NCBI RefSeq assembly: GCF_003334405.1
Contig: NZ_QOWM01000020.1
From: Escherichia coli
GTDB taxonomy: Bacteria > Pseudomonadota > Gammaproteobacteria > Enterobacterales > Enterobacteriaceae
Length of the DNA stretch: 60,030 nucleotides
Direction: 5' to 3' (one strand)
This document shows positions 27,298 to 50,659 of this stretch, piece after piece (the stretch's first letter is position 1; every line of letters begins with the position of its first letter). The notes below the pieces were generated by a model. It worked only from the letters and a program-made list of their open reading frames with translations. It searched no databases and was not told the origin of the DNA. A program made the position numbers and the translations under genes.

Positions 27298-27299
27298 GA

Positions 27300-27967: not shown

Positions 27968-29353
27968 ATGCTAAAAATCTTCAATACTCTGACACGCCAA
28001 AAAGAGGAATTTAAGCCTATTCACGCCGGGGAAGTCGGCATGTACGTGTGTGGAATCACCGTTTACGATCTCTGTCATATCGGTCACGGGCGTACCTTTG
28101 TTGCTTTTGACGTGGTTGCGCGCTATCTGCGTTTCCTCGGCTATAAGCTGAAGTATGTGCGCAACATTACCGATATCGACGACAAAATCATCAAACGCGC
28201 CAATGAAAATGGCGAAAGCTTTGTAGCGCTGGTGGATCGCATGATCGCCGAAATGCACAAAGATTTTGATGCGTTGAACATTCTGCGCCCGGATATGGAG
28301 CCGCGCGCGACGCACCATATCGCAGAAATTATTGAACTCACTGAACAACTGATCGCCAAAGGTCACGCTTATGTGGCGGACAACGGCGACGTGATGTTCG
28401 ACGTCCCGACCGATCCGACATATGGCGTGCTGTCGCGTCAGGATCTCGACCAGCTGCAGGCAGGCGCGCGCGTTGACGTGGTCGACGACAAACGCAACCC
28501 GATGGACTTCGTTCTGTGGAAGATGTCGAAAGAGGGCGAACCGAGCTGGCCGTCTCCGTGGGGCGCGGGCCGTCCAGGCTGGCACATTGAATGTTCGGCA
28601 ATGAACTGCAAGCAGCTGGGTAACCACTTTGATATCCACGGCGGCGGTTCAGACCTGATGTTCCCGCACCACGAGAACGAAATCGCGCAGTCCACCTGTG
28701 CCCATGATGGTCAGTATGTTAACTACTGGATGCACTCCGGAATGGTGATGGTTGACCGCGAGAAGATGTCCAAATCGCTGGGTAACTTCTTTACCGTGCG
28801 CGATGTGCTGAAATACTACGATGCTGAAACCGTGCGTTACTTCCTGATGTCGGGCCACTATCGCAGCCAGCTGAACTACAGCGAAGAGAACCTGAAGCAG
28901 GCGCGTGCGGCGCTGGAGCGTCTCTACACTGCGCTGCGCGGCACCGATAAAACCGTTGCGCCTGCCGGTGGCGAAGCGTTTGAAGCGCGCTTTATTGAAG
29001 CGATGGACGACGATTTCAACACCCCGGAAGCCTATTCCGTGCTGTTTGATATGGCGCGTGAAGTGAACCGTCTGAAAGCAGAAGATATGGCAGCGGCGAA
29101 TGCAATGGCATCTCACCTGCGTAAACTTTCCGCTGTATTGGGCCTGCTGGAGCAAGAACCGGAAGCGTTCCTGCAAAGCGGCGCGCAGGCAGACGGCAGC
29201 GAAGTGGCTGAGATTGAAGCGTTAATTCAACAGCGTCTGGATGCCCGTAAAGCGAAAGACTGGGCGGCGGCAGATGCGGCGCGTGACCGTCTTAACGAGA
29301 TGGGGATCGTGCTGGAAGATGGCCCGCAAGGGACCACCTGGCGTCGTAAGTAA
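27968..29353 (+). CDS. cysS: Cysteinyl-tRNA synthetase
   Basis: 461 aa; class I HIGH (HIGH) and KMSKS motifs present. Confidence 0.95.
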
Positions 29354-29360
29354 TTGCGCT

Positions 29361-29389
29361 ATTGCCGGATGCGAGTTTTCGCATCCGGT
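29361..29389. terminator. Hairpin between convergent cysS and ybcI (REP-like palindrome, likely bidirectional terminator)
   Basis: CCGGATGCG-agttttc-CGCATCCGG inverted repeat immediately after the cysS stop. Confidence 0.4.
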
Positions 29390-29910
29390 TATCGTCTGTG
29401 CCACCACAACATTCCCATCAGTAGAATCCCCGGCAACCACACCCACATCAATTCAGAAATAATCACCTGATGCCCGTACGGCGTGGTGTAACGAGACAAT
29501 GCAAACGGCGCGACTTTAATCACCTGCCAGGGAGCGAAAAAGCGTTCATCTGACCACGGCCACAGCCAGCCAACCCCTTTACCGCCAGTGGTTACCGAAT
29601 CCAGCAAGCTGTGCGATAGCAACGAGACGGTTAAAAACAGCCAGCAGCGAATCAGCCCAGCCCTGAACCATCGGCGTCCAATCAGCACACATAACAGCGG
29701 GACAACAAACGCAAACACCAGCGAATGGGTAAACCCGCGATGACCAAAAACATTGCCGTAAGCAATGCCAAATTTAAACGACAATACGTCGGCGTCGGGC
29801 AGCATCGCCAGGATGATTCCGGCAAATAACAGACGCGGAGGGATGACTTTCGAACCCAACCCTAAACCAATGCATAGGGGAACGGCGGCGTGCGTAATAA
29901 CGGTTGGCAT
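29389..29910 (-). CDS. ybcI: Inner-membrane metal-dependent hydrolase-like protein (DUF457)
   Basis: 173 aa membrane protein; synteny. Confidence 0.8.
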   Translation of the reverse strand: MPTVITHAAVPLCIGLGLGSKVIPPRLLFAGIILAMLPDADVLSFKFGIAYGNVFGHRGFTHSLVFAFVVPLLCVLIGRRWFRAGLIRCWLFLTVSLLSHSLLDSVTTGGKGVGWLWPWSDERFFAPWQVIKVAPFALSRYTTPYGHQVIISELMWVWLPGILLMGMLWWHRR

Positions 29911-30017
29911 GATGGTCGCTTCGGCAAAATGTCGATGCTATCAGCATGGATGAACGGGGCGTAGAGGGCAAAAGTCTGAAAAGAGAACCGGCCTGTTGAT
30001 ACAGGCCGGGAAAGGGA

Positions 30018-30230
30018 TCAGGCAACAACCTGTACGCTGTGACCTGCAAAACTCACTGTCTGACCGGCGACGATTTTGCAGCGTTTGCGCGTTTCAACCG
30101 CGCCATCGACTTTCACCTGGCCTTCGGCAATCGCGATTTTCGCCTGCGCGCCGCTTTCGCTCCAGCCTTCCAGTTTCAGCAAGTCGCACAGCTCAACGTG
30201 CGGATGTTTACCTAAAGAAAATGTCGCCAT
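30018..30230 (-). CDS. ybcJ: S4-like RNA-binding protein
   Basis: ~70 aa from MATFSLGKHPHVEL; directly downstream of folD. Confidence 0.75.
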   Translation of the reverse strand: MATFSLGKHPHVELCDLLKLEGWSESGAQAKIAIAEGQVKVDGAVETRKRCKIVAGQTVSFAGHSVQVVA

Positions 30231-30231
30231 G

Positions 30232-31098
30232 TTACTCACCCTGTGGATCATGATATTCAACGCACGCCTGTAGCGTGTTTTCAATCAGCGTGGCAACCGT
30301 CATCGGGCCAACGCCGCCGGGAACAGGCGTAATGTATGAGGCGCGTTTAGCCGCGTCTTCAAACACCACGTCGCCCACAACTTTGCCATTTTCCAGACGG
30401 TTGATGCCGACATCAATCACAATTGCGCCTTCTTTGATCCAGTCACCAGGAATAAAGCCCGGCTTGCCGACGGCAACGATCAACAGATCGGCATTTTCTA
30501 CGTGATGACGCAGATTTTTAGTGAAGCGGTGAGTCACGGTAGTGGTGCAACCTGCTAGCAGCAGTTCCATGCTCATCGGGCGGCCAACGATATTCGATGC
30601 GCCAATCACCACGGCGTTGAGGCCGAAGGTATCAATGTTGTAACGCTCAAGCAGCGTGACGATGCCGCGCGGGGTGCAGGGACGCAGACGCGGCGCGCGC
30701 TGGCACAGGCGACCGACGTTATAAGGATGGAAACCGTCTACGTCTTTGTCCGGGTGAATACGTTCCAGTACTTTGACGTTATCAATACCCGCCGGTAACG
30801 GCAGTTGAACCAGAATGCCATCAATGGTGTTGTCGGCATTCAGCGCATCGATAAGCTCCAGCAGCTCCGCTTCGCTGGTGGTTTCCGGGAGGTCATAAGA
30901 GCGGGAGACGAACCCGACTTCTTCACAAGCCTTGCGTTTGCTTGCGACATAAATTTGCGATGCAGGGTTACTACCCACCAGCACAACGGCCAGTCCTGGT
31001 GCCCGCAGTCCGGCTGCAATACGCGCCTGAACTTTTTGAGCAACTTCAGAGCGCACCTGCTGCGCAATCGTTTTACCGTCAATAATCTTTGCTGCCAT
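30232..31098 (-). CDS. folD: Bifunctional methylenetetrahydrofolate dehydrogenase/cyclohydrolase
   Basis: 288 aa from [13 protein letters not shown]. Confidence 0.9.
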
Positions 31099-31577
31099 CA
31101 GAGAGAGGATTCCATCTGTTACGTAGGTCGAAGGGGATGCGCCTATTTTGTCAGAAGCGGGGCGCGCTGTCAGGTTTCGTTTCAGATTTATCACGTGAAG
31201 CGACCTCTTGCGAAGGTTAGGCGCACCGTCGCTGAGGTCGCTGAGATTGAAAGCTTCATTTTTCGTCCATGATGGCGTTGTAAATCTGGAACTGACTTAT
31301 TTCCTTGTCTAAGGATTAAGATAATTTAAGAAATACCTGACAATATAAAAAGAATTTTCAGCCTGGTAATTTACCGCTTCAGGTCTATATTTGTGTTGAA
31401 TATATTTTGCGCGGAAGTATTCATCTAACGGGGCTCTCTATTTTTTAGAATAGAGTGCATATTTTCAATTAAGACATTCTTAGAGGATAAAAAGGAATTT
31501 ACTACTATCAGTGTCTTAAATAAAGTAATCGGTTATATACGGATGTGGAGTCGATAAATGAGATTGAAGGAATATAT

Positions 31578-32120
31578 ATGAAATTAAGATTTATTTCGTC
31601 TGCGCTGGCTGCCGCACTATTCGCCGCTACGGGTAGTTATGCTGCCGTTGTAGATGGCGGTACAATTCACTTTGAAGGCGAACTGGTGAATGCTGCCTGT
31701 TCAGTGAATACTGACTCGGCAGACCAAGTTGTCACACTCGGTCAATATCGTACCGATATTTTCAATGCTGTTGGTAATACCTCTGCATTAATTCCATTCA
31801 CCATTCAGTTGAACGACTGCGATCCTGTTGTTGCCGCTAATGCTGCCGTTGCATTTTCTGGTCAGGCTGATGCAATCAATGATAATTTATTGGCCATTGC
31901 ATCCAGTACCAATACAACAACAGCAACGGGTGTCGGTATTGAAATACTTGATAATACATCCGCAATTCTCAAACCTGATGGGAATAGCTTCTCAACCAAC
32001 CAGAACTTGATCCCCGGGACCAACGTTCTTCATTTTTCTGCACGTTATAAAGGCACCGGTACAAGTGCATCAGCAGGGCAAGCAAATGCTGACGCGACTT
32101 TTATTATGAGATACGAATAA
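31578..32120 (+). CDS. sfmA: Type 1-like fimbrial major subunit
   Basis: ~180 aa with signal peptide ([22 protein letters not shown]) and fimbrin fold. Confidence 0.85.
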
Positions 32121-32339
32121 TCAAAACCACGTTGTTTTGAATTATATATCACGTCTTATAACAAAGTAATGTACCGGTTGTCTGAAGCGGTATGGTGGCA
32201 ATGTAAATCGAAATCATGTTCACTTTGTATCATGCCGCTTTATTAAATGAAAAGGGAATGATGTGTTGTAAGAAACCAAAGCAATCATTTCTTTATATTT
32301 CTTATTTTTGCCGTCAGGAATACACAAGGCGTATTAACT

Positions 32340-33032
32340 ATGATGACTAAAATAAAGTTATTGATGCTCATTATATTTTATTTAATCATTTCGGCCAGCG
32401 CCCATGCTGCCGGAGGGATCGCATTAGGTGCCACGCGTATTATTTATCCCGCTGATGCTAAACAGACTGCGGTATGGATTAGAAATAGCCATACCAATGA
32501 GCGTTTTCTGGTCAATTCGTGGATTGAAAACAGCAGCGGTGTAAAAGAAAAGTCATTCATCATTACACCGCCACTATTTGTTAGTGAACCCAAAAGCGAA
32601 AATACTTTGCGTATTATTTACACCGGTCCACCGCTGGCGGCAGATCGTGAGTCTCTGTTCTGGATGAATGTTAAGACGATCCCTTCGGTAGATAAAAATG
32701 CATTGAACGGCAGGAATGTTTTGCAACTGGCGATTTTATCGCGCATGAAGTTATTTCTCCGTCCAATTCAATTACAAGAATTACCCGCAGAAGCGCCGGA
32801 CACACTCAAGTTTTCGCGATCCGGTAACTATATCAATGTTCATAATCCATCACCTTTTTATGTCACCCTGGTTAACTTACAAGTGGGCAGCCAAAAGTTG
32901 GGGAATGCTATGGCTGCACCCAGAGTTAATTCACAAATTCCCTTACCCTCAGGAGTGCAGGGAAAGCTGAAATTTCAGACCGTTAATGATTATGGTTCAG
33001 TAACCCCGGTCAGAGAAGTGAACTTAAACTAA
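32340..33032 (+). CDS. sfmC: Fimbrial periplasmic chaperone (PapD-like)
   Basis: 230 aa; signal peptide; chaperone-usher synteny. Confidence 0.9.
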
Positions 33033-33062
33033 CCGAATCATCTGACAATATCAGAGCTAATT

Positions 33063-35672
33063 ATGAAAATACCCACTACTACGGATATTCCGCAGAGGTA
33101 TACCTGGTGTCTGGCCGGAATTTGTTATTCATCTCTTGCCATTTTACCCTCCTTTTTAAGCTATGCGGAAAGTTATTTCAACCCGGCATTTTTATTAGAG
33201 AATGGCACATCCGTTGCTGATTTATCGCGCTTTGAGAGAGGTAATCATCAACCTGCGGGCGTGTATCGGGTGGATCTCTGGCGTAATGATGAGTTCATTG
33301 GTTCACAGGATATCGTATTTGAATCGACAACAGAAAATACAGGTGATAAATCAGGTGGGTTAATGCCCTGTTTTAACCAGGTACTCCTTGAACGAATTGG
33401 CCTTAATAGCAGTGCATTTCCCGAGTTAGCCCAGCAGCAAAATAATAAATGCATCAATTTACTGAAAGCTGTACCTGATGCCACAATTAACTTTGATTTT
33501 GCAGCGATGCGCCTGAACATCACTATTCCTCAGATAGCGTTGTTGAGTAGCGCTCACGGTTACATTCCGCCTGAAGAGTGGGATGAAGGTATTCCTGCTT
33601 TACTCCTGAATTATAATTTCACTGGTAACAGAGGTAATGGTAACGATAGCTATTTTTTTAGTGAGCTCAGCGGGATTAATATTGGCCCGTGGCGTTTACG
33701 CAACAATGGTTCCTGGAACTATTTTCGCGGAAATGGGTATCATTCAGAACAGTGGAATAATATTGGCACCTGGGTACAGCGCGCCATTATTCCGCTGAAA
33801 AGTGAACTGGTAATGGGAGACGGCAATACAGGAAGTGATATTTTCGATGGTGTTGGATTTCGTGGTGTACGGCTTTACTCTTCCGATAATATGTATCCTG
33901 ATAGCCAGCAAGGGTTTGCCCCAACAGTACGTGGGATTGCCCGTACGGCGGCCCAGCTAACGATTCGGCAAAATGGTTTTATTATCTATCAAAGCTATGT
34001 TTCCCCCGGCGCTTTTGAAATTACAGATTTGCACCCGACATCTTCAAATGGCGATCTGGACGTCACCATCGACGAGCGCGATGGCAATCAGCAGAATTAC
34101 ACTATTCCGTATTCAACAGTGCCAATTTTACAACGCGAAGGGCGTTTCAAATTTGACCTGACGGCGGGCGATTTTCGTAGCGGTAATAGTCAGCAATCAT
34201 CGCCTTTCTTTTTTCAGGGCACGGTACTCGGCGGTTTACCACAGGAATTTACTGCCTACGGCGGGACGCAATTATCTGCCAATTACACCGCCTTTTTATT
34301 AGGGCTGGGGCGCAACCTCGGGAACTGGGGCGCAGTGTCGCTGGATGTGACCCATGCGCGCAGTCAGTTAGCCGACGATAGTCGTCATGAGGGGGATTCT
34401 ATTCGCTTCCTCTATGCGAAATCGATGAACACCTTCGGCACCAATTTTCAGTTAATGGGTTACCGCTATTCGACACAAGGTTTTTATACCCTTGATGATG
34501 TTGCGTATCGTCGAATGGAGGGGTACGAATATGATTACGATTACGACGGTGAGCATCGCGATGAACCGATAATCGTGAATTACCACAATTTACGCTTTAG
34601 CCGTAAAGACCGTTTGCAGTTAAATATTTCACAATCACTTAATGACTTTGGCTCGCTTTATATCTCTGGTACCCATCAAAAATACTGGAATACATCGGAT
34701 TCAGATACGTGGTATCAGGTGGGGTATACCAGCAGCTGGGTTGGCATCAGTTATTCGCTCTCATTTTCGTGGAATGAATCTGTAGGGATCCCCGATAACG
34801 AACGTATTGTCGGACTTAATGTTTCAGTGCCTTTCAATGTTCTGACCAAACGTCGCTACACCCGGGAAAATGCGCTCGACCGCGCTTATGCCTCCTTTAA
34901 CGCCAACCGTAACAGCAACGGGCAAAATAGCTGGCTGGCAGGTGTAGGTGGGACCTTACTGGAAGGCCACAACCTGAGTTATCACGTAAGCCAGGGTGAT
35001 ACCTCGAATAATGGGTATACGGGCAGCGCCACGGCAAACTGGCAGGCCGCTTACGGTACGCTGGGGGTCGGGTATAACTACGACCGCGATCAACATGACG
35101 TTAACTGGCAGCTGTCTGGCGGTGTGGTCGGGCATGAAAATGGCATAACGCTGAGCCAGCCTTTAGGGGATACCAATGTTTTGATTAAAGCGCCTGGCGC
35201 AGGCGGTGTACGCATTGAAAATCAAACTGGCATTTTAACCGACTGGCGCGGCTATGCGGTGATGCCGTATGCCACGGTTTATCGGTATAACCGTATCGCG
35301 CTTGATACCAATACGATGGGGAATTCCATCGATGTTGAAAAAAATATTAGCAGCGTTGTGCCGACGCAAGGCGCGTTGGTTCGTGCCAATTTTGATACCC
35401 GCATAGGCGTGCGGGCGCTCATTACCGTTACCCAGGGCGGAAAACCGGTGCCGTTTGGATCACTGGTACGGGAAAACAGTACCGGAATAACCAGTATGGT
35501 GGGTGATGACGGGCAAGTTTATTTAAGTGGTGCGCCATTGTCTGGTGAATTACTGGTTCAGTGGGGAGACGGCGCGAACTCACGCTGCATTGCGCACTAT
35601 GTATTGCCGAAGCAAAGCTTACAGCAAGCCGTCACTGTTATTTCGGCAGTTTGCACACATCCTGGCTCATAA
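33063..35672 (+). CDS. sfmD: Fimbrial outer-membrane usher
   Basis: 869 aa; synteny. Confidence 0.9.
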
Positions 35673-35684
35673 AGGAAATTATCA

Positions 35685-36692
35685 ATGAAGATAATCTGCA
35701 GATTATTATTGGCGATGGCATGTTTGTGTCTGGCAAACATATCCTGGGCTACTGTTTGTGCAAATAGTACTGGCGTAGCAGAAGATGAACACTATGATCT
35801 CTCAAATATCTTTAATAGCACCAATAACCAGCCAGGGCAGATTGTTGTTTTACCGGAAAAATCCGGCTGGGTAGGTGTCTCAGCAATTTGTCCACCCGGC
35901 ACGCTGGTGAATTATACATACCGTAGTTATGTCACCAACTTTATTGTTCAGGAAACTATCGATAATTATAAATATATGCAATTAAATGATTATCTATTAG
36001 GTGCGATGAGTCTGGTTGATAGTGTTATGGATATTCAGTTCCCCCCGCAAAATTATATTCGGATGGGAACAGATCCTAACGTTTCGCAAAACCTTCCATT
36101 CGGGGTGATGGATTCTCGTTTAATATTTCGTTTAAAGGTTATTCGTCCCTTTATTAACATGGTGGAGATCCCCAGACAGGTGATGTTTACCGTGTATGTG
36201 ACATCAACGCCTTACGATCCGTTGGTTACACCTGTTTATACCATTAGTTTTGGTGGCCGGGTTGAAGTACCGCAAAACTGCGAATTAAATGCCGGGCAGA
36301 TTGTTGAATTTGATTTTGGTGATATCGGCGCATCGTTATTTAGTGCGGCAGGGCCGGGTAATCGACCTGCTGGTGTCATGCCGCAAACCAAGAGCATTGC
36401 GGTCAAATGTACGAATGTTGCTGCGCAGGCTTATTTAACAATGCGTCTGGAAGCCAGTGCCGTTTCTGGTCAGGCGATGGTGTCGGACAATCAGGATTTA
36501 GGTTTTATTGTCGCCGATCAGAACGATACGCCGATCACGCCTAACGATCTCAATAGCGTTATTCCTTTCCGTCTGGATGCAGCTGCGGCAGCCAATGTCA
36601 CACTTCGCGCCTGGCCTATCAGTATTACCGGTCAAAAACCGACCGAAGGGCCGTTTAGCGCGCTGGGGTATTTACGCGTCGATTATCAATGA
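35685..36692 (+). CDS. sfmH: Fimbrial adhesin-like subunit
   Basis: 335 aa with signal peptide; FimH-like position in the operon. Confidence 0.8.
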   Translation: MKIICRLLLAMACLCLANISWATVCANSTGVAEDEHYDLSNIFNSTNNQPGQIVVLPEKSGWVGVSAICPPGTLVNYTYRSYVTNFIVQETIDNYKYMQLNDYLLGAMSLVDSVMDIQFPPQNYIRMGTDPNVSQNLPFGVMDSRLIFRLKVIRPFINMVEIPRQVMFTVYVTSTPYDPLVTPVYTISFGGRVEVPQNCELNAGQIVEFDFGDIGASLFSAAGPGNRPAGVMPQTKSIAVKCTNVAAQAYLTMRLEASAVSGQAMVSDNQDLGFIVADQNDTPITPNDLNSVIPFRLDAAAAANVTLRAWPISITGQKPTEGPFSALGYLRVDYQ

Positions 36693-36702
36693 GGTACGGA
36701 GA

Positions 36703-37218
36703 ATGAGAAGAGTACTCTTTAGCTGTTTCTGCGGGCTACTGTGGAGTTCCAGTGGATGGGCAGTTGACCCTTTAGGAACGATTAATATCAATTTGCACGG
36801 TAACGTTGTTGATTTCTCCTGTACCGTAAACACAGCGGATATTGATAAGACGGTAGATTTAGGCAGATGGCCTACGACACAACTACTGAACGCTGGCGAT
36901 ACCACGGCACTCGTCCCTTTTAGCCTGCGGCTGGAGGGATGTCCTCCGGGTTCAGTTGCGATTTTATTTACGGGAACGCCGGCATCCGATACCAACCTGC
37001 TGGCTCTGGATGATCCCGCAATGGCACAAACCGTCGCCATCGAATTACGTAATAGCGATCGCTCCCGGCTCGCACTGGGGGAGGCGAGCCCGACTGAGGA
37101 AGTAGATGCAAATGGCAATGTCACACTAAACTTTTTTGCCAATTATCGAGCGTTAGCCAGCGGTGTTCGGCCAGGTGTGGCGAAAGCGGATGCGATATTT
37201 ATGATCAATTATAATTAA
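36703..37218 (+). CDS. sfmF: Fimbrial minor subunit
   Basis: ~171 aa from MRRVLFSCFCGLLWSSSGWA. Confidence 0.8.
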   Translation: MRRVLFSCFCGLLWSSSGWAVDPLGTININLHGNVVDFSCTVNTADIDKTVDLGRWPTTQLLNAGDTTALVPFSLRLEGCPPGSVAILFTGTPASDTNLLALDDPAMAQTVAIELRNSDRSRLALGEASPTEEVDANGNVTLNFFANYRALASGVRPGVAKADAIFMINYN

Positions 37219-37220
37219 TA

Positions 37221-37853
37221 TTATATTAATTCGTATAATTTGGCGTAGTCGATAAGCTCTACAATTGAATGCAAACCTAGCTTGCCATAAATATTAGATT
37301 TATGCGCACTAACTGTTTTATTGCTAAGTAATAACTTATCGGCAATTTCTTTATTAGATAATCCGCTAACCAGATAACGTAATATGGTCACTTCACGATT
37401 AGATAGCACAGTGACCGTTGAACTATTCGTACTACATTTATTGCTTTTTATATAGTTAAGCGTTTCGCTGGGAAAAAACGTGTATCCGGAGAGGATCATC
37501 TGAACGGCATGAAAAATATCATTCTGATCATTGCATTTACTGACAAAACCGTTAGCACCAGCTTGTATCGCTCTGCCAGCATAAAAGCATTCTGATTTCG
37601 ATGATAAAAATAACACTTTCACTGTGCTCTGGATTTGTTTGATCCTTTTCAGGAAGGTAAAACCGTCTGTTCCGGGCAAGTCTATATCCATAATGATTAA
37701 ATCAACAGGACGGGTTCGGAGATAATCGATGGTTATGCGATAATCATCCGTTTTCAGGACAATCTGCAATTCACTGTTTTTTTGCAACAGAACTTCAATA
37801 GACATTCTGATGATAGGATGAGTATCCATAATGATCACCGACGTTGGTTTCAT
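37221..37853 (-). CDS. fimZ: LuxR/NarL-family response regulator of fimbrial expression
   Basis: ~210 aa from MKPTSVIIMDTHPI; receiver domain plus C-terminal LuxR HTH. Confidence 0.85.
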   Translation of the reverse strand: MKPTSVIIMDTHPIIRMSIEVLLQKNSELQIVLKTDDYRITIDYLRTRPVDLIIMDIDLPGTDGFTFLKRIKQIQSTVKVLFLSSKSECFYAGRAIQAGANGFVSKCNDQNDIFHAVQMILSGYTFFPSETLNYIKSNKCSTNSSTVTVLSNREVTILRYLVSGLSNKEIADKLLLSNKTVSAHKSNIYGKLGLHSIVELIDYAKLYELI

Positions 37854-38036
37854 AGTTACCAGTCTCATAGGAGCGGACAATTTTCCGTTAGGTCGGGAAA
37901 TTGTACTTTGATACATGAAAATACGGGTTTTCTTGATTCAGACGCGCAGCGGTGTGCGTTTGTTTGCCGCTATAGCGAAATAAATCAGAAAATCAGACGC
38001 GGTCGTTCACTTGTTCAGCAACCAGATCAAAAGCCA

Positions 38037-38064
38037 TTGACTCAGCAAGGGTTGACCGTATAAT
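38037..38064 (+). promoter_or_regulatory. Candidate sigma70 promoter for argU
   Basis: TTGACT (38037-42), 16-bp spacer, TATAAT (38059-64), about 30 bp upstream of the tRNA 5' end. Confidence 0.45.
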
Positions 38065-38095
38065 TCACGCGATTACACCGCATTGCGGTATCAAC

Positions 38096-38172
38096 GCGCC
38101 CTTAGCTCAGTTGGATAGAGCAACGACCTTCTAAGTCGTGGGCCGCAGGTTCGAATCCTGCAGGGCGCGCCA
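38096..38172 (+). tRNA. argU: tRNA-Arg (anticodon UCU)
   Basis: 77-nt cloverleaf GCGCCCTTAGCTCAGTTGGATAGAGC...CTTCTAAGTCG...GGTTCGAATCCTGCAGGGCGCGCCA with anticodon loop cuUCUaa and encoded CCA. Confidence 0.9.
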
Positions 38173-38217
38173 TTTCTTCCTCATTTATGCCCGTCTTATC
38201 CGTTTCCGCTTTGCCCT

Positions 38218-38979
38218 TCACCACATCACTTTTTGTCGCTGTTTGGCGAGATAATTCAACGGTGTCAGGCCGTAAAACGCCTTAAAAACAGAGATAAAGT
38301 ACGACGTGCTGCTATAGCCACATAATTGCGCCACCTGAGTGATATTTTTGTTATCCATCAATAACATCTGTACGGCGTAACGCATACGACACTCTGTGAC
38401 AATCTGGCTATAGCTGGTATTTTCGTTTTTTAATTTCTTTTTGAGCAGGCTGGGGCTTAAACATAGCGAACTGGCGACAATTCGCAGATTCCAGTAATGC
38501 TGAATATCGCTTTGAATAATGCGGCAGACGCTGTCGCGGACGCTGCTGCGTAAGATATACATCAGTAGGGCAATAAACCGCGATTGCTCAAGAAAGTTAG
38601 ACAATACGGTAAAAAGCAATGCGCGCGTCAACTCCGCTTCGCAGGGTCTGCTGGGTTGCTGCTTGCTGTGGTTGGCGGCTAGCCGGAACACTTCCGGTGT
38701 ACGGCTATGACAAGCGATAACCGGGGTTGCCAGCCGCGACCAGGGCTTTACACAGGTTAAGTTCTTATTTAAAAACAACAGATAATCGTTGATGATGTTA
38801 CGGTTGATGTGGGTGATTAATACGTGATTTAACGTTGAGAGTTCAATGACGTTATTGTTGCACGCGAAGGCGGCCAGGTAGTTTTTCGGAAGGGTAAACG
38901 TAGCATGGTTATTGACGCTTACCTCTACCTCTTTTTCGGTCAGGATCACCACGCAAGGTTCACTGCTGCTCAATTGCAT
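38218..38979 (-). CDS. envY: AraC-family transcriptional regulator (porin thermoregulation)
   Basis: 253 aa; C-terminal AraC-type HTH. Confidence 0.85.
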   Translation of the reverse strand: MQLSSSEPCVVILTEKEVEVSVNNHATFTLPKNYLAAFACNNNVIELSTLNHVLITHINRNIINDYLLFLNKNLTCVKPWSRLATPVIACHSRTPEVFRLAANHSKQQPSRPCEAELTRALLFTVLSNFLEQSRFIALLMYILRSSVRDSVCRIIQSDIQHYWNLRIVASSLCLSPSLLKKKLKNENTSYSQIVTECRMRYAVQMLLMDNKNITQVAQLCGYSSTSYFISVFKAFYGLTPLNYLAKQRQKVMW

Positions 38980-39161
38980 TTCGCACTCCTCAGATATCAG
39001 AAACTCCGCTCAAAGGATCTATGCTTCCTGCATGAGTGATCGGCCCGTTCGCCGATAACGATCTTCTTTCTTTAGCACGCTTTTTAGCAATTAATCTTGA
39101 TGGAATTCTGATGAGAGCGAAAGAGGTAAGCCAGGTCGTACCCGACTTACCTGGAGGAGAT

Positions 39162-40052
39162 TTAATACTCGAGAATGCCGTGCGCGACGGGCAAATAGCG
39201 CAGAGAGAAATAGAGAGTGTCTTTACCGCAAGAGGAACGTTTCGCTAACAGCGAGGCAATTTCTGCGTCCGGTTTCGGTTTCGCTGTAAAGGTTTTGCCT
39301 TTGCCGGCGACAAAAAGTTCATAAACAACGCCGCTGGCAGGGGCGGGACTTTGGCAATCGGCGCTGGCCTGTAAATAACGTTCACGCTGTTCAGCGGTCA
39401 GTTTATCCACGCCGCTGCCATCCTGTACCCAGACATTAACGCCGGTTGCTTTAACGTGTTCCAGCAGTTGGCGATAGCCATCGGGCGACATGTTTCCGGC
39501 GAAAAAACTACTGATATAAACCGGTTTTGCTGAAACATCGCTAATCAGCCGCTGCGCGTTGTTTAACCATGTTAGCAAAGGCTGACGGGCGGCTTCGCTG
39601 CGCCAGTTCAGGTCGTCAATTTCCGCGCTGATGTACCAGCCATCCGGCGTTATGCCAGGCGCGGCGCTCCATAATCTGGCTTGCTGGAGATCGGCAGCCA
39701 GCAGGCGATTAAGATAGCTTTCCAGCGCTGCGGACGACTGTTTCTGGTGCATAAAAAATTCCGGATCGGCGTTCAGCCCGACAATAAGCTTCAGACCAGC
39801 CTGTTGCGCAGCTGCGGCCCGCTTAAACAATAACGTGCGCTGTTCTGGCTGGGTAAATGCATCGCCGTAACGGGTCCATTGCAAAACAAGGGTATCGAAG
39901 CCTTGCAAACGTAACTGACTCATCAGCCCCTGCCACTGGGTATCGGTAACCTGACTATCTCGGTTTTGTGGTTGCCAGATAATACCTTTCATCGCAAAGG
40001 AAAAAGGGCTGACCAAAAGCAGTGTCAGCAATACGAAAATGAACTTACGCAT
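39162..40052 (-). CDS. ybcH: Periplasmic protein of the nfr locus (YbcH), secreted
   Basis: 296 aa with signal peptide MRKFIFVLLTLLLVSPFSFA; directly downstream of nfrA. Confidence 0.8.
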   Translation of the reverse strand: MRKFIFVLLTLLLVSPFSFAMKGIIWQPQNRDSQVTDTQWQGLMSQLRLQGFDTLVLQWTRYGDAFTQPEQRTLLFKRAAAAQQAGLKLIVGLNADPEFFMHQKQSSAALESYLNRLLAADLQQARLWSAAPGITPDGWYISAEIDDLNWRSEAARQPLLTWLNNAQRLISDVSAKPVYISSFFAGNMSPDGYRQLLEHVKATGVNVWVQDGSGVDKLTAEQRERYLQASADCQSPAPASGVVYELFVAGKGKTFTAKPKPDAEIASLLAKRSSCGKDTLYFSLRYLPVAHGILEY

Positions 40053-43025
40053 TTACCAGTGCACTCCAATGGTGAGAAACGCGTTGTTGCGCTCTCCGTT
40101 ACGTTGATTAATCGCCTTAAAGGTATGTTGATACTCGACGCCGAGACTGACTTTGTGCGGCCAGGCGTCGTAGTGCGTCTCGCCGGTCCAGATATTCCAG
40201 CGGACCCCGACTCCGCCAAGCTGCGCGCCCTGAGTGCCTTTATCACGATAGCCGTTGTCCTGAACGTGAGCGTAAGGCTCAATAGTCTGTCCGTTAGCTA
40301 CCTTCTGATGCCAGCTGACGCGATAATCTGCCGTCCACGCCTGAATATCCTGGCGGATATATTGCGCCGCATCGAGGTACAGGTTTTGGGCAAACCAGCC
40401 TGAACCGTTCGGGTGCCATTCGTCGCTGTATTTGCCGCCATTAAAGAATGAGGCGCTGGCGCGCAGCATGGTATCGGATGCGCCATTTTGGCCGTTCAGC
40501 GGCAACTGCTGTTCGACGGCGATGAAAAAGATCTGATCGCGCAGCGGCTTCCAGCGCAGACCGGTGCCGGACATCGGATTTTTCACCGGCATCATCACCC
40601 CGTTTTCTCCGGTATCGGCAAAGACGCGGCTATAAACTGAGAGCAGGTCGCCTTCCAGCAGCATATTGCGTCCGATGCGGTACTCGGCTTCCAGTTGTCC
40701 GTAGCTACGATAGCTTTTCCCTGGCGCTGCGCCGCCGACATTATTGTTAGCGGTACTCATTGCGCCGGAACGCAAGCCGATGGAAGAATCGAAACTGAAC
40801 GTCCAGCGGCGACCGACCTCCTCATGCAAACGGCGGAAATTGAAGCGTTGTTGATTTTGTTCTGGGGTCAGTGGGGTTATCAGCGCCTGATTATCAATGT
40901 CATCAATCACCAGCCGGGCGTAGTGCTGCGTCGCAGGCATGTCATCCAGACGCTGGTTCACGTAGGCCAGTTGTCGGATCAGTGCCGGATCGTCCGGAAG
41001 CCCTTTATGCGCCGGTTCGAGCATTTCCCGCGACTGTGCGATATCACCGCTATCCCACAAGGCGTAACCAAGCGCTGCCTGGGTGTTGCTATTATTCGGT
41101 TCCAGTTCCAGCGCGGCGCGCAAATCACTCACCGCGGCCGGGACATTATGACGTTGGCGATAAATTGTCGCCCGCGCAACGTAAGCGTTGGCAGAAGGCG
41201 CAATATTGATTGAGCGCGTGAGATCGTTCAGTGCGAGTTCCGGCTGACCAGGAATGTAACGTTGCGCATGCAGCCACCAGTAGAGGGCATTGCTTCCCAG
41301 TCCACGTTTTTCTGCCTGTTGTAGCCAGCGATCGCGAGCCGCACCATTTCCTGCCGCCTGGGCGGTATTGGCAGCAGCAAGCAGATCCTCATTGCTCATG
41401 TCGTGAAGACTGATTTTCTGCCAGGCCGCCAGTGCGGTGGCGTAGTCCTCAACCTGATACGCCTGATAGGCTACCGCACGATGTTGCCAGGCGCTCGGTT
41501 GTCGTTGTTCGGCCTGAAGCCATGCATACAACGCCACACCGGGTAGCGTGTCCCGATAACACTTTGCCAGACGGTTCCAGGCGGCGGCATCGTAGGAAGG
41601 CGACATATCGCCCAGCAAGCGAACTATTGCCGGGCAATTATCTGCAATACCCGGCAACTGACTTTGCCACTGATGTTGCTCCGCCAGCGGTAAGGGTTTC
41701 GATAAAATCGCCACCTTCGCCGGCGTTGCCAGGTAAGGATGACTTTCCAGCAGAGACGCCAGTCGCGCCATTAAAGTCTGGCTGACACGCGCATCGCCCT
41801 GGAAAGGATAGCGTTGCAGCAATAAATCGGCAGCTTCGCGTGACTGCTCGTTCTGCATCAGTTGCCAGGTTAGTTGATCCAGGCGGGTAAGATTTGCCGG
41901 TTCTTGCTGATACAGCAATCGTGCCAGACGCAGAGCTTCAGCCTTGTTACGGGTCGCCACGCTGACAGCATAACGCTCCTCAAGCATTTCATTGGCGGGG
42001 AGGGTGGCGAGCAGTTTTTGCGCTGCGTCGTACTGACCTTCTTTTAACAGCACCGGTAGCGTCGCGCCAACAACATACTGGCGGTTGTCGGCAAACTGTA
42101 CCGTATAATTCGCCAACGCCTGAACGGGGTTAGCGCTGTATTTAGATAACAGATAGAGCCAACTTTTCTCTTGTGCGTCCGTGGTAAATAGTGGCTTATT
42201 TTCAATGAGATAATGCTGGAGGCGTGCTTTTTCGCCACGATAAGCCAGCGCGGTCGCGTAAGTAATATATGACTGAGGATCGGTGAAGATCCCCTGTGAT
42301 TGCAGTGCCAGGATCCGATCGTCCAGCTGCCCGGCAAGAAGCACGTCAAACCACTGACGGCGTTCTGCCGCGCTTAATGTGTTCTGCTGGCGTGCTTCAT
42401 TGTATAGCGTATCTGCCTGGGACCATTGTTTCAGGTAGATTGCCCGTTGCAGCAGATCGGTTCGCAGCGTTTTTCCTTCCGGCGATGCAGCAAACGTCGC
42501 ATCGTTCAGTTGCGCTCTGGCGACAGGTAACTGTGCCAGCCGCAGGGCATTCTGCCCGACTTCACTGCGACAACGCAGGGTCGGCGCAGCATCGCACGCT
42601 TTTTGCTGGGCAAGCAGTTCTTCAACTGTCGTAACGCTTTTCACTTCAACCGGAATAGCCGCCAGACTGCGCTCAAGTCGGGCATCTCCTGGGTGACGTT
42701 TCAGTTGATCCTCAAGCAACAGCCGCGCCCGGTCATCATGACCAAAATGGCGATAGGCTTCCGCAAGGTATAAAGTCAGCGGAATATTATCCGGCACCTG
42801 CTGGTGTATATATTCAAATTCGCGGATGGCGGTTGCTTCGTCGTTATTTTTCTGTGCCTTCAGCGCTTTATCGAGACGGGGATAAATAACAAAATGGCGA
42901 TAATCGCTCAGCCCCAGCTCTTCTGCGCTGGTGCCGATATTGTCTGCGAGTGCGCTGGTACTCAATAAAGACGTCAGCAGTAAACCAGACCATCCGATGA
43001 CGCGATTAAGGTTATTCTCCTTCAT
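40053..43025 (-). CDS. nfrA: Outer-membrane phage N4 adsorption protein A (TPR-rich periplasmic domain plus C-terminal beta-barrel)
   Basis: ~990 aa; signal peptide; ends ...FLTIGVHW (aromatic C-terminus typical of OM barrels). Confidence 0.85.
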   Translation of the reverse strand: MKENNLNRVIGWSGLLLTSLLSTSALADNIGTSAEELGLSDYRHFVIYPRLDKALKAQKNNDEATAIREFEYIHQQVPDNIPLTLYLAEAYRHFGHDDRARLLLEDQLKRHPGDARLERSLAAIPVEVKSVTTVEELLAQQKACDAAPTLRCRSEVGQNALRLAQLPVARAQLNDATFAASPEGKTLRTDLLQRAIYLKQWSQADTLYNEARQQNTLSAAERRQWFDVLLAGQLDDRILALQSQGIFTDPQSYITYATALAYRGEKARLQHYLIENKPLFTTDAQEKSWLYLLSKYSANPVQALANYTVQFADNRQYVVGATLPVLLKEGQYDAAQKLLATLPANEMLEERYAVSVATRNKAEALRLARLLYQQEPANLTRLDQLTWQLMQNEQSREAADLLLQRYPFQGDARVSQTLMARLASLLESHPYLATPAKVAILSKPLPLAEQHQWQSQLPGIADNCPAIVRLLGDMSPSYDAAAWNRLAKCYRDTLPGVALYAWLQAEQRQPSAWQHRAVAYQAYQVEDYATALAAWQKISLHDMSNEDLLAAANTAQAAGNGAARDRWLQQAEKRGLGSNALYWWLHAQRYIPGQPELALNDLTRSINIAPSANAYVARATIYRQRHNVPAAVSDLRAALELEPNNSNTQAALGYALWDSGDIAQSREMLEPAHKGLPDDPALIRQLAYVNQRLDDMPATQHYARLVIDDIDNQALITPLTPEQNQQRFNFRRLHEEVGRRWTFSFDSSIGLRSGAMSTANNNVGGAAPGKSYRSYGQLEAEYRIGRNMLLEGDLLSVYSRVFADTGENGVMMPVKNPMSGTGLRWKPLRDQIFFIAVEQQLPLNGQNGASDTMLRASASFFNGGKYSDEWHPNGSGWFAQNLYLDAAQYIRQDIQAWTADYRVSWHQKVANGQTIEPYAHVQDNGYRDKGTQGAQLGGVGVRWNIWTGETHYDAWPHKVSLGVEYQHTFKAINQRNGERNNAFLTIGVHW

Positions 43026-45249
43026 TTTCGGACTCCAGTTGCGCAACCTGTTCTGTGTTTAAACCTGCTTTGAGTAATAGTGATTGCATCGAAACTTGTA
43101 ATTCGCGTTGAATTGTCAGGACGCGATCCAACGTTTCCTGGCTGATAACGCCTTCGGTGACCAAAAACTTGCCGAGCGGCAGAGAACTGCGTTCATGGCG
43201 CAATAACAACACGTTAATTGCTGAACGATTAATATGACCGAGCGTGGTCAGTATTTCGGCGAACAGGAACTGATGCGGCACATATTGCCGCCAGATTTCA
43301 CCGGCCTGCTGTTCCGTGAGCCACTGATGCTGAACCGCATTGTACAACATTGCCCGCGGATCGTGACCGCGTCGGCGTGCATACCAGTGACGTAACCCTG
43401 TGACAATTTGTCCCCGCAGAACAATGACGTAACGCACTTTGCGTCCGACTTTACGCGTCAGGGCCGCCAGCGAAACCGGGTCAATACCATCTTCACTGCC
43501 GACAATTAACTCGTCATTTTCCAGACGCAGCGGCAGTACCGCATAATGCAGCGCCACGGAGGCCGGCATTTCGGCAATCAGCGAGGAAGGGATCTGCCAG
43601 GCATCGATGGATTCCCACGCCACGCCGTTTTGCTCTGCCAGCGCCTGTGCCAGCTGCTCGGCGCTAATCAGCCCCTGCATCAGCATTGAACCGCCCAGGC
43701 GTAGACCTTCGACGCGATTACGCAGTGCTGTATCGAGTTGTTCTTCAGTGATGACCTGATTTTCCAGCAGAATTTGACCTAACGGGCGCAACGAGCGGGT
43801 ATCGCCAGTCACGCTGGGGAAGTCATGCGTTGTTTTATCCCACGCCACGCGACGTGGATCGCCGTGTTGAAGTACCTGTTTTAGCGCGCGCCAGTTGGCC
43901 ATGAAGTTAATCAGGTTGCCCCAGAAAAGACGCAGGACGGAAAGCAGCCCCTGCGTCAGGCCGTAGTAGCCAGTAACGAAAATCACCCGCTGCACGATGC
44001 GGTTAACCATCAAACCAAAGTTTAGCCACAGCAGGGTCATTAACCATGCGCTGCCGCTGAAAATAGAAAGGAAATGCCAGGCATCGGGCCACAAACTTTC
44101 ATACGCCAGCAACAGCAAAAGCTGGATCATCACCAGCATCGCGAGGAAGCTGACAAAGTTACTGATTGCCCCTTTGCGGTCGCGCCAGAGAAAGTAGTTC
44201 AGCGTCAGGCTGGAGGTCCATTTATGGGTTTTAAAGCCTTGGAAAACAATGCCGATGATCCAGCGGGATTTTTGTCGAACCGCAGTCGAAAAGGTATCGG
44301 GGAAATATTCGCGCACGCAGATCATGTTTGATGTCCGCGCGTGCTGTAAAAATTTACGCTGCTCGCGTTCTTTGGCTTCGTCCACCACCGGAAAACGGAC
44401 AAAAATTTCCGTCATACCTTTTTCTTTCAGGCGGAAGCCAATGTCGTAATCTTCAGTAAGACTCTGCACGTCGAAAGCAATACCGTCACCGTCAGCTAAC
44501 AGTGCGGTCACGGCGCGGCGGCTGAAACAGGTGCCGACGCCTGCGCTGGGCACTTGTCCGGCGAGGGCTTCACGCACCGGAACATCTTTGCCATGCAGCT
44601 CTGAAAACTCATCAATGTAAGTCATGCTGGTGAAGTGCGTCCATTCGCGTTCGAACGGATACACCGGGATCTGAATCAGATCTTTACGCTCGACCAGATA
44701 GTTGAACAGACGCAATTCCATCGGTGAAATCACATCTTCGGCGTCATGCAGAATAAAACCAGCAAAAGCGAAATTGGCGCTACGCTCAAATTGGGTGATG
44801 GCGTCCAGCACGTTGTTCAGACAGTCGGCTTTGCTGGTGGGGCCAGGACGCGCGCAGACTACCTTATGCACATTCGGGAAGCGAGCGCACACTTCGTCAA
44901 CATCACGCTGAGTATCGGGGGCGTTGGGGTAGGTGCCAACAAAGATATGATAGTTTTCGTAGTCGAGCGTGGTCGCCGCCAGCTCGGCCATATTGCCGAT
45001 GACGCCCGTTTCATTCCACGCCGGAACCATAATCGCTAACGGTTTTTCATCTGGTTTATACAGTTCGCGGTAACTCATTCGCGGGTAGCGGCGATAAACA
45101 CTCAACTTGCGTTTAATGCGGCGTACCCAGTAGACGACATCAATAAAAAAATCGTCCAGCCCGCTGATGAACATGATGACCGCTAACGTTATCGCGATTA
45201 CTTTTAAGCCGTAGAGCCAGGTAGCAAAAACATCAAGAAGCCAGTCCAC
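43012..45249 (-). CDS. nfrB: Inner-membrane family-2 glycosyltransferase with C-terminal MshEN-type c-di-GMP-binding motifs (phage N4 adsorption protein B)
   Basis: 745 aa; N-terminal TM helix; GT2 D-x-D-type motif (ILHDAEDVIS); C-terminal repeats RLGGSMLMQGLISAEQLAQALAEQ and LGKFLVTEGVISQETLDRVLTIQ; 14-nt overlap with nfrA. Confidence 0.85.
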   Translation of the reverse strand: MDWLLDVFATWLYGLKVIAITLAVIMFISGLDDFFIDVVYWVRRIKRKLSVYRRYPRMSYRELYKPDEKPLAIMVPAWNETGVIGNMAELAATTLDYENYHIFVGTYPNAPDTQRDVDEVCARFPNVHKVVCARPGPTSKADCLNNVLDAITQFERSANFAFAGFILHDAEDVISPMELRLFNYLVERKDLIQIPVYPFEREWTHFTSMTYIDEFSELHGKDVPVREALAGQVPSAGVGTCFSRRAVTALLADGDGIAFDVQSLTEDYDIGFRLKEKGMTEIFVRFPVVDEAKEREQRKFLQHARTSNMICVREYFPDTFSTAVRQKSRWIIGIVFQGFKTHKWTSSLTLNYFLWRDRKGAISNFVSFLAMLVMIQLLLLLAYESLWPDAWHFLSIFSGSAWLMTLLWLNFGLMVNRIVQRVIFVTGYYGLTQGLLSVLRLFWGNLINFMANWRALKQVLQHGDPRRVAWDKTTHDFPSVTGDTRSLRPLGQILLENQVITEEQLDTALRNRVEGLRLGGSMLMQGLISAEQLAQALAEQNGVAWESIDAWQIPSSLIAEMPASVALHYAVLPLRLENDELIVGSEDGIDPVSLAALTRKVGRKVRYVIVLRGQIVTGLRHWYARRRGHDPRAMLYNAVQHQWLTEQQAGEIWRQYVPHQFLFAEILTTLGHINRSAINVLLLRHERSSLPLGKFLVTEGVISQETLDRVLTIQRELQVSMQSLLLKAGLNTEQVAQLESENEGE

Positions 45250-45398
45250 ACAAAAACCTTACATTAACGCTGGTTATGTTTAGGGTGGCGTATATTAAGG
45301 TTTTTTATGAATTGTGACAGCTTTTTACCATTAATAGGTATGACTATTGCGGCACGTTATTTTTACACTGGTTATAAAAGTTGCCGTTTGCTGAAGGA

Positions 45399-46841
45399 TT
45401 AAGCGGGTAATGTGATAACAAACCTTGTCCCCCGCGCATCCGACGTTACCGCAACCGTGCCTTTATGCGCGACAACAATCGATTTCACTATCGCCAGGCC
45501 AATACCGCTACCTTCACCTTTTCGCTGGCGGGAGGGGTCAACGCGATAGAAACGGTCAAACAATCGCGGTAAGTGCTCGGGCGCAATGGGCGTACCGGGG
45601 TTTTCGACGATAACTTGCACCAGGTGATCGACCGTCTGACAGCGCACTACAATTGTCTCTCCGGTTGGCGTATAACGCAGGGCGTTCGAAAGCAGGTTGC
45701 TTAGCGCCCGACGCAGCATCAGCGGATCGCCCGCGACCTGACACTTGTCGCCAACAAACCGCAACTCCACGCCGCGATCTTCCGCTAACGCCTCGAAAAA
45801 ATCGAACACTTTGCCGACTTCATCCGCCAGGTTGAGCATTTTCTTTTCGGGGATTAGCTGGTTGTTATCGGCCTGAGCGAGAAACAGCATATCGCTGACC
45901 ATTTTCGCCATTCGCGTCAGCTCTTCGAGATTAGAGTAGAGCACATCTTCCAGCTCCTTCTGGCTGCGCGACTGGCTGAGGGCGATTTCGGTTTGCGTTA
46001 TGAGATTCGTAATTGGTGTGCGAATTTCGTGAGCGATATCCGCTGAGAAATTGGACTGGCGGGTAAAGACATCCTCAATACGCTCGATCATATGGTTGAA
46101 CGACAGTACCAGCTGTTCCAGCTCAATGGGCACGGTCTGCGGGTCAAGGCGAACGTCGAGATCTTTCGAGGTAATATTCTGGATTTGACGGCTGACGCTG
46201 CGGATCGGCGCGTGACCTTTATGTACCGCCAACAGCACGATAAAGACGATCAGGATGCTGATTACCGATGCGGTCATAATAAGTTTATTCATCAAATCAT
46301 TTATGTAATGAAGATGAAAATCGATCGAAAGCGCGATGTAGAGCGTATAAATCGGTTTGCCGTCAACCAGCGGGCCAACCGGTAAGTTAATCATCCGCCA
46401 GTTGCTGTGTTCCATATGCCCGTGACCGTGCCCTGGCATCATAATCGTCGGGCCGGAAAGGAGATACACCTCGCCGCCCCGCGCGTCTTTATCGGGTATG
46501 GCGTCACGCGTAAACTCGCGGATATCGGGCGCACCGGGGGAGTGATACACCGTTTTACCCTGACTATCTGCCAGGGAAATCAACACATTGGAATAACCAC
46601 TGACGATATCTTCCAGCGTCATTAAGCGTCGGGCTTGCGTTTCGTCAGGGTGATTTAGTACCCGTTCAAGGGTGGCGCTAATCTCTTTTAAATCATTAAT
46701 ATCCTGCTCGGCAAAATGCACTTTTACTGAGTGGATCATGATCCATGCAAAGGCGAAAAACGCCGCGATGGTGGCCAGGCTGATAAAAAAGGTCAGGCGG
46801 GTTGCCAGCGAAAACGGGCGCTGAAATGGCTTACTGACCAT
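45399..46841 (-). CDS. cusS: Copper/silver-sensing histidine kinase
   Basis: ~480 aa; two TM segments, H-box ([10 protein letters not shown]) and HATPase domain; overlaps cusR. Confidence 0.9.
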
Positions 46842-47514
46842 CCGGCACCTCAAGCATGTAACCCACGCCGCGCACGGTTTGAATCAGCTTCGGCTCAAAG
46901 TCGTTGTCGATTTTGCCGCGTAGCCGCTTCACCGCCACATCAATGGCGTTAGTGTCGCTGTCGAAATTCATGTCCCATACCTGCGAGGCGATAAGCGAGC
47001 GGGGCAGCACTTCGCCCTGATGGCGAAGGAAAAACTCCAGCAGAGTAAATTCTTTACTGGTCAGAGTGATGCGCGTGCCGCTGCGGGTGACTTTGCGGCT
47101 GACGAGATCGACCATCAGATCGGCAACCTGAAACTGACTTTCGATAATCACCGCCGCCCCGCGCCGCAGGAGAGTGCGCACCCGCGCCAGCAGTTCAGCA
47201 AAAGCGAACGGCTTCACCAGATAGTCATCGGCCCCCAACTCCAGCCCCTTGACGCGATGTTCAATGGTGCCAAGCGCGGTAAGCAACAGAATCGGCATCC
47301 CTTTATTGGCGGAGCGCAACATGCGCACGATATCCCAGCCGTTCACGTCCGGCAGCATAATATCGAGGATTATCAGGTCATAATCTCCGGTCATCGCCAG
47401 ATGGTAGCCATTCAGCCCGTTGTCGGCCAAATCGACCACAAAACCGGCTTCGGTTAACCCTTTGGTCAAGTATTCTCCGGTTTTCTTTTCATCTTCGACA
47501 ATCAGCAGTTTCAT
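46831..47514 (-). CDS. cusR: OmpR-family response regulator of the cus operon
   Basis: 227 aa; receiver plus winged-helix domain. Confidence 0.9.
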
Positions 47515-47568
47515 ATTTCCTCCACATGTTGCCCGGGCAATTCTAGAGTAGCGGGATCAGATGGCAAT

Positions 47569-47590
47569 CGCTTATTGGCAAAATGACAAT
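47569..47590. promoter_or_regulatory. CusR box in the cusR-cusC divergent promoter
   Basis: Perfect inverted repeat AAAATGACAA-tt-TTGTCATTTT. Confidence 0.7.
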
Positions 47591-47670
47591 TTTGTCATTT
47601 TCCTGTCACCGGAAAATCAGAGGCTGGCGAGTAAAGTTGGCGGCATAAAATCACCAGAAATTATGAGCCT

Positions 47671-49050: not shown

Positions 49051-49076
49051 TAATTTTTAACTCCAGGAGAGAATAA

Positions 49077-49409: not shown

Positions 49410-49424
49410 CCCAGGTTTAATGAT

Positions 49425-50648: not shown

Positions 50649-50659
50649 GGGAATAACCA

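What the first reader, a model, noticed from the sequence alone, without database searches (positions are those of the whole stretch)
38096..38230. No prophage at the argU integration site: DLP12, ompT and appY are absent
The tRNA-Arg(UCU) 3' end is followed after only ~45 bp by the envY stop codon. In K-12 the DLP12 lambdoid prophage, as I recall through appY and ompT, lies between argU and envY. This strain therefore has the unoccupied (or cleanly vacated) attachment site and lacks the OmpT outer-membrane protease and the AppY regulator.
Basis: partly seen in the sequence, partly recalled or inferred. Interest (0 to 1): 0.45.

Follow-up and report, generated by a model that had tools for sequence, protein, structure and literature searches.

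The report
Empty argU prophage attachment site
This E. coli strain has an intact, unoccupied phage integration site at the argU tRNA gene where K-12 carries the DLP12 cryptic prophage with appY and ompT; about 46% of complete E. coli genomes have the same empty site, so it is an ordinary, already described polymorphism.

Summary
tRNA-Arg(UCU) lies at 38096-38172 (+). The envY stop codon is at 38218-38220 (minus strand), so the gap is exactly 45 bp.

In K-12 a 47-bp sequence, the last 45 nt of argU plus TT, occurs twice, 21,255 bp apart. The two copies bracket intD ... appY-ompT. The window has this core once (38128-38174). Its left side matches the K-12 argU-intD junction and its right side matches the K-12 ompT-envY junction, with no base added or lost, so it is a precise attB.

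The 60-kb window holds no DLP12 DNA, no integrase, no OmpT and no second argU fragment.

The empty junction occurs in 2510 of 5426 complete E. coli genomes. Chromosomal ompT occurs in 3095 of them.

In 42 of the 43 closest empty-site relatives listed, including a perfect 24-kb match (NCTC9041), appY-ompT matches nowhere else on the chromosome. So the strain very probably lacks OmpT and AppY. This cannot be proved from one window, because O157:H7 has the same empty site yet carries ompT in another prophage.

Whether the site was never occupied or was vacated precisely cannot be told from the sequence. The finding is already known and of low interest.

The parts
37221..37853 (-). fimZ, the left-hand neighbour of argU
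   Evidence: It aligns at 100% to K-12 L001 305-937, annotated fimZ. The ORF listed starts at an upstream ATG.
38037..38064 (+). Promoter-like site upstream of argU (TTGACT-16-TATAAT)
   Evidence: It matches the consensus at 11 of 12 positions. This is a consensus match only; function was not tested.
38096..38172 (+). argU, tRNA-Arg(UCU), complete with encoded CCA
   Evidence: ARAGORN; Rfam tRNA at 72.1 bits; identical to K-12 argU.
38128..38174 (.). 47-bp attachment core, CTTCTAAGTCGTGGGCCGCAGGTTCGAATCCTGCAGGGCGCGCCATT, present as a single copy (attB)
   Evidence: It occurs once in the window and twice in K-12, at L001 1212-1258 and 22514-22560, with 21,255 bp between the copies. The same 47 bp are described in PMC6379469.
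38173..38217 (.). 45-nt spacer between argU and the envY stop codon; native chromosomal DNA, not a phage remnant
   Evidence: It is identical to the DNA that follows the attR core in K-12. It matches nothing in the DLP12 interior.
38218..38979 (-). envY, an AraC-family regulator convergent with argU
   Evidence: ORF. tblastn gives 100% identity over 253 aa to K-12 EnvY.
39162..40052 (-). ybcH, the next gene on the right, as in K-12
   Evidence: ORF; same gene order as K-12 and strain M217.

Best explanation
Window 38128-38174 is an intact, unoccupied bacterial attachment site (attB) for lambdoid phages that use a DLP12-type tyrosine integrase. The core is the 3' 45 nt of argU plus two bases. 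A phage integrating here brings its own copy of the core, so the tRNA gene is rebuilt at attL and a partial copy is left at attR. That is the arrangement in K-12, where 21.3 kb of DLP12, including the cargo genes appY and ompT, lie between the two copies. In this strain there is one core, argU runs straight into its native downstream DNA, and envY follows 45 nt later. The strain therefore has no DLP12 element at this locus, and very probably no OmpT or AppY at all. It is a natural K-12-like (phylogroup A type) isolate, not an engineered deletion strain. What is shown: the anatomy, the precision of the junction, the absence of prophage DNA from the window, and the population frequency. What is inferred: genome-wide absence of ompT and appY, and that the site can still accept a phage.
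For: The three-way alignment shows the window following K-12 attL up to and through the core, then following K-12 attR from the core onward. The core occurs exactly once in the window and twice in K-12, 21,255 bp apart. The DLP12 interior has no blastn hit in the window. OmpT and IntD have no tblastn hit. AppY hits only its paralogue EnvY, at 44% identity. Only chance 10-14-nt matches to argU plus spacer exist elsewhere in the window. The empty junction is continuous in 2510 of 5426 complete genomes. ompT is present in 3095 of 5426. Natural isolates match 24 kb around the site with 0-5 mismatches, and NCTC9041 matches perfectly. A chimeric query (10 kb of window plus K-12 appY-ompT) matched in only one place in 42 of the 43 closest empty-site genomes, NCTC9041 included. 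Living temperate phages carry the same 47-50-bp core: PhiR29_1, PhiR68_2, 2G7b, ev243, Kati, Turner and Salmonella SEN22. Published work places DLP12 and appY at argU with a 47-bp duplicate at the far end.
Against: Only 60 kb of the genome is visible, so ompT or appY elsewhere, or on a plasmid, cannot be excluded directly. O157:H7-type genomes combine an empty argU-envY junction with ompT in another prophage next to minE. One close relative, A14, has a second match to the appY-ompT query. Megablast would miss diverged plasmid omptins. That the site can act as an integration target was not tested.
Confidence: 0.95

Rival explanations
1. The site was cleanly vacated. A recent ancestor carried a DLP12-like element, which was lost precisely. 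The loss could have come from Int-mediated excision or from homologous recombination between the two 47-bp direct repeats. Either route restores exactly this attB.
For: The 10-kb block around the site (36.03-46.0 kb) differs from K-12 at only two real positions. K-12's DLP12 is heavily decayed, with IS3 and IS5 insertions and truncated genes. It is therefore unlikely to have entered K-12 as a phage since the two strains shared that block. ompT sits next to envY in genomes from many lineages, at 97-98.6% identity to K-12, which suggests the element has been at this locus for a long time. A paper states that Hha induces DLP12 excision in K-12.
Against: Precise excision leaves no scar, so the junction cannot tell this history from an ancestral empty site. 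Empty junctions also occur on flanks diverged 1-2% from the window, for example strain W and O157:H7. Both states are therefore old and widespread. The full K-12-type DLP12 is found in only 300 genomes. No ancestral-state reconstruction was done.
Confidence: 0.5
2. This lineage was never occupied, or it received an empty allele by homologous recombination. On this reading the empty attB is inherited, and K-12 obtained its decayed DLP12 by recombination from another E. coli.
For: The empty state is present in 46% of genomes on a range of flank haplotypes. Recombination is active in this region: patches 1.5-2% divergent from K-12 lie on both sides of the site, at 19-36 kb and 46-54.5 kb. Ramisetty and Sudhakari argue that cryptic prophages spread horizontally among E. 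coli strains.
Against: The immediate flanks, 2.1 kb to the left and 7.8 kb to the right, are essentially identical to K-12. Any imported segment would have to come from a K-12-identical donor or have very close crossover points.
Confidence: 0.42
3. The empty site is an artefact or an engineered product: either an assembly that collapsed the two 47-bp repeats and dropped the prophage, or a laboratory K-12 derivative with DLP12 deleted.
For: Laboratory DLP12 deletion strains of K-12 exist. The immediate flanks are K-12-identical.
Against: The window differs from K-12 by 1.5-2% over about 25 kb, so it is not a K-12 derivative. It matches natural isolates exactly. The same continuous junction is found in 2510 independent complete genomes. 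A 47-bp repeat is too short to cause that collapse in finished assemblies.
Confidence: 0.02

Closest known systems
DLP12 attachment site at argU in E. coli K-12 (attL at argU-intD, attR at ompT-envY; Lindsey et al. 1989 as cited in PMC10057817; the 47-bp duplicate is described in PMC6379469)
   Same: The 47-bp core is identical, as are the bacterial arms on both sides: the left arm is 100% over 1258 bp and the right arm 99.96% over 4491 bp.
   Different: The window has one core copy and no element, so it is attB rather than an attL/attR pair. intD, appY, ompT and the other roughly 30 DLP12 genes are absent.
Empty argU-envY junction in natural E. coli, for example NCTC9041, M217, strain W and O157:H7
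   Same: The junction is the same and continuous. It is 100% identical in many phylogroup-A-like isolates.
   Different: The window shows no difference from NCTC9041 over 24 kb. O157:H7 differs in carrying ompT in another prophage beside minE.
tRNA-gene attB sites of temperate phages in general, where the phage carries the 3' end of the tRNA gene and integration rebuilds the gene (general principle as stated in PMC6379469, citing Campbell 2003)
   Same: The core overlaps the 3' part of a tRNA gene, running from the anticodon loop to the CCA end. Extant phages carry the same core.
   Different: No difference in kind was found; this is a textbook example.

Membership tests
Unoccupied attB of DLP12-type (argU-targeting) integrases | Exactly one copy of the 47-bp core, overlapping the 3' end of argU | tested here: met
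   There is one exact match at 38128-38174 and none on the other strand. No degenerate second copy was found.
Unoccupied attB of DLP12-type (argU-targeting) integrases | Left flank equals the bacterial arm of attL and right flank equals the bacterial arm of attR, with no inserted or missing bases | tested here: met
   Three-way alignment with the K-12 junctions. blastn breakpoints fall at 38174 and 38125.
Unoccupied attB of DLP12-type (argU-targeting) integrases | No integrase or other prophage gene next to the tRNA gene | tested here: met
   No IntD tblastn hit and no DLP12 interior blastn hit in 60 kb. envY begins 45 nt after argU.
Unoccupied attB of DLP12-type (argU-targeting) integrases | Phages exist that carry the matching attP core | tested here: met
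   Escherichia phages PhiR29_1, PhiR68_2, 2G7b, ev243, Kati and Turner, and Salmonella phage SEN22, match window 38125/38128-38174 at 94-100% identity.
Unoccupied attB of DLP12-type (argU-targeting) integrases | Supports integrase-catalysed recombination | not testable with these tools
   This needs an integration assay with an argU-targeting phage or a cloned integrase.
DLP12 cryptic prophage (as a resident element) | intD adjacent to and overlapping the 3' end of argU, with a second core copy distal to ompT | tested here: not met
   Searches show a single core, no intD and no ompT.
OmpT-negative, AppY-negative genotype (whole genome) | No ompT or appY homologue anywhere in the genome, plasmids included | tested here: inconclusive
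   Both are absent from the 60-kb window. They are also absent from the chromosomes of 42 of 43 closest empty-site relatives. The rest of this strain's genome is not available, and O157:H7 is a counter-example in kind.

The most novel reading that the evidence does not exclude
The empty site may be the product of a very recent, scar-free loss of a decayed, supposedly 'grounded' DLP12-like element in a wild K-12-like lineage, given that the flanks differ from K-12 at only 2 positions in 10 kb. That would mean such cryptic prophages, together with their ompT and appY cargo, are still shed precisely in nature.
Probability: 0.4. Interest if true: 0.2.

Novelty: already known. Interest (0 to 1): 0.08.

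Why it matters
The practical consequence is modest. A strain with this genotype is expected to lack the OmpT outer-membrane protease, which matters for recombinant protein stability and for resistance to cationic peptides. It is also expected to lack the AppY regulator, which affects acid stress, biofilm and motility according to PMC10057817. It offers a free integration site for argU-targeting temperate phages. As genome biology it adds nothing new. Presence or absence of DLP12 at argU is a described polymorphism: PMC6379469 reports it in 74% of 638 genomes. The empty state occurs in 46% of 5426 complete genomes here.

Tried and rejected
- Engineered K-12 prophage-deletion strain: rejected. 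About 25 kb of the window is 1.5-2% divergent from K-12, and natural isolates match the window perfectly.
- Hidden prophage remnant or partial argU copy in the 45-nt spacer or nearby: rejected.
- Dating the element from the spread of the K-12 DLP12 structure: uninformative. Only 300 genomes carry at least 80% of it, and the rest carry diverse mosaic lambdoid prophages.
- Using the intrinsic-terminator scan to see whether argU has its own terminator in the empty configuration: no convincing site lies between argU and envY, so no conclusion was drawn.
- Finding the second appY-ompT match in strain A14: the tools give no coordinates for secondary places, so this was not pursued.

Full report
**The observation**

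ARAGORN finds a single tRNA gene in the 60-kb window, tRNA-Arg with anticodon TCT, at 38096-38172 on the + strand. Rfam's tRNA model agrees. A strong sigma-70-like site, TTGACT-16-TATAAT, lies at 38037-38064 just upstream. On the minus strand a 253-aa ORF occupies 38218-38979. It is 100% identical in protein to K-12 EnvY, and its stop codon is at 38218-38220.

**Comparison with K-12**

In a K-12 chromosome (L001) the gene order is:
- fimZ and argU
- intD, which starts 15 bp after the tRNA
- a decayed lambdoid prophage with IS3 and IS5 insertions and truncated genes
- appY, ompT, envY, ybcH, nfrA

I aligned the window with the two K-12 junctions. The window follows the argU-intD junction up to and through a shared core. 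From that core onward it follows the ompT-envY junction.

The core is 47 bp: CTTCTAAGTCGTGGGCCGCAGGTTCGAATCCTGCAGGGCGCGCCATT. That is the last 45 nt of argU plus TT. It occurs twice in K-12, with 21,255 bp between the copies, and once in the window at 38128-38174. No base is added or lost, so the window carries a precise attB. The same 47-bp duplicate at the far end of DLP12 is described in PMC6379469. appY is placed within DLP12 at argU in PMC10057817.

- The DLP12 interior has no blastn match anywhere in the window.
- OmpT and IntD have no tblastn match. AppY matches only its paralogue EnvY.
- A sensitive short-word search with argU plus the spacer finds only chance matches of 10-14 nt.
- The repeat finder shows nothing relevant.

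There is no remnant and no partial argU duplicate.

**How common the empty site is**

- A 1.1-kb query across the junction is continuous in 2510 of 5426 complete E. coli genomes, or 46%.
- Chromosomal-type ompT is present in 3095 genomes, or 57%.
- The two sets must overlap by at least 179 genomes. In a spread sample, the empty-site genomes that have ompT elsewhere are O157:H7-type (H128-H131).
- In one such O157:H7 genome, ompT sits at the end of a different prophage beside minE. It is accompanied by the same methyltransferase and tail-fibre-assembly module as the right arm of DLP12.

An empty argU site therefore does not by itself prove that OmpT is absent.

**The strain and its relatives**

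Natural isolates match 24 kb around the site with 0-5 mismatches, and NCTC9041 matches perfectly. To ask whether such strains carry appY or ompT elsewhere, I searched with a chimeric query: 10 kb of window plus the K-12 appY-ompT segment. Of the 43 listed genomes with the empty junction at 100.0% identity, 42 matched in one place only, NCTC9041 included. They therefore have neither gene on the chromosome. One genome, A14, had a second place that I could not locate.

The strain thus very probably lacks OmpT and AppY. This remains an inference, and diverged plasmid omptins would escape megablast.

**Natural isolate, not a laboratory deletion**

Against K-12 the window is a mosaic:
- Positions 1-19.0 kb, 36.03-46.0 kb and 55-60 kb carry 0-2 differences each.
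- Positions 19.0-36.0 kb and 46.0-54.5 kb are 1.5-2% divergent.

The attB lies in the middle near-identical block. The apparent difference at 38127 is only the edge of the attR alignment.

**Vacated or never occupied**

Precise excision leaves no scar, so the junction cannot decide.

Points favouring recent precise loss:
- The flanks are nearly identical to K-12, whose DLP12 is too decayed to be a recent infection.
- ompT lies next to envY in many lineages at 97-98.6% identity.
- Hha-induced DLP12 excision in K-12 is reported.

Points favouring an inherited or imported empty allele:
- The empty state is frequent and occurs on diverged flanks.
- Recombination has clearly been active on both sides of the site.
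- Only 300 genomes carry the K-12-type element.

I leave the question roughly even.

**Mechanism**

The site is a standard tRNA-gene attB. An integrating phage brings its own copy of the 3' part of argU, so the gene is rebuilt at attL. Living temperate phages carry the same 47-50-bp core: PhiR29_1, PhiR68_2, 2G7b, ev243, Kati, Turner and Salmonella SEN22. The empty site is therefore a plausible current target. Recombination itself was not tested.

**Verdict**

The phenomenon is a described, very common presence/absence polymorphism. It has some practical meaning, namely a likely OmpT-negative and AppY-negative strain with a free attB, but no novelty.

Noticed in passing
window 19000-36030 and 46000-54500, versus 1-19000, 36030-46000 and 55000-60030: The similarity to K-12 is a mosaic. 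Two patches, allC to sfmH and cusS to cusA, are 1.5-2% divergent. They flank blocks that carry only 0-2 differences each, and the attB sits in the central near-identical block. This looks like two recombination imports on either side of the site.
   Followed up: partly
window 49047-49055 (cusC-cusF intergenic): K-12 has a 132-bp element here that the window lacks. From memory its sequence resembles an ERIC/IRU intergenic repeat.
   Followed up: partly
window 34533-34538 (sfmD) and 31237-31247 (folD-sfmA intergenic): There are two small tandem-repeat length differences from K-12. One is a 6-bp Tyr-Asp repeat expansion that gives an 869-aa rather than 867-aa usher protein. The other is an 11-bp duplication of GTCGCTGAG-like sequence.
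   Followed up: partly
L005 9001-9954 (O157:H7 strain Rafaela_II): O157:H7 carries ompT at the end of a different prophage next to minE. The same methyltransferase and tail-fibre-assembly module as the right arm of DLP12 accompanies it, while the argU-envY junction in these genomes is empty. The ompT module therefore travels with lambdoid prophage right arms.
   Followed up: partly
NZ_CP028760.1 (strain A14, Virginia opossum): This is the only one of the 43 closest empty-site relatives with a second match to the appY-ompT query. The location and identity of that match are unknown.
   Followed up: no
genomes H158-H168 (mostly human isolates, flanks about 97% identical to the window): These genomes carry a short element at this locus: integrase, methyltransferase, tail-fibre-assembly fragment and ompT. 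The features listed under the match name ybcH but not envY, suggesting that envY is missing or diverged there.
   Followed up: no
window 59635-59790; 16477-16611: Rfam hits were found for the sok antitoxin RNA of the hokE locus, and for the sRNAs STnc480 and ES036 in the allantoin region.
   Followed up: no
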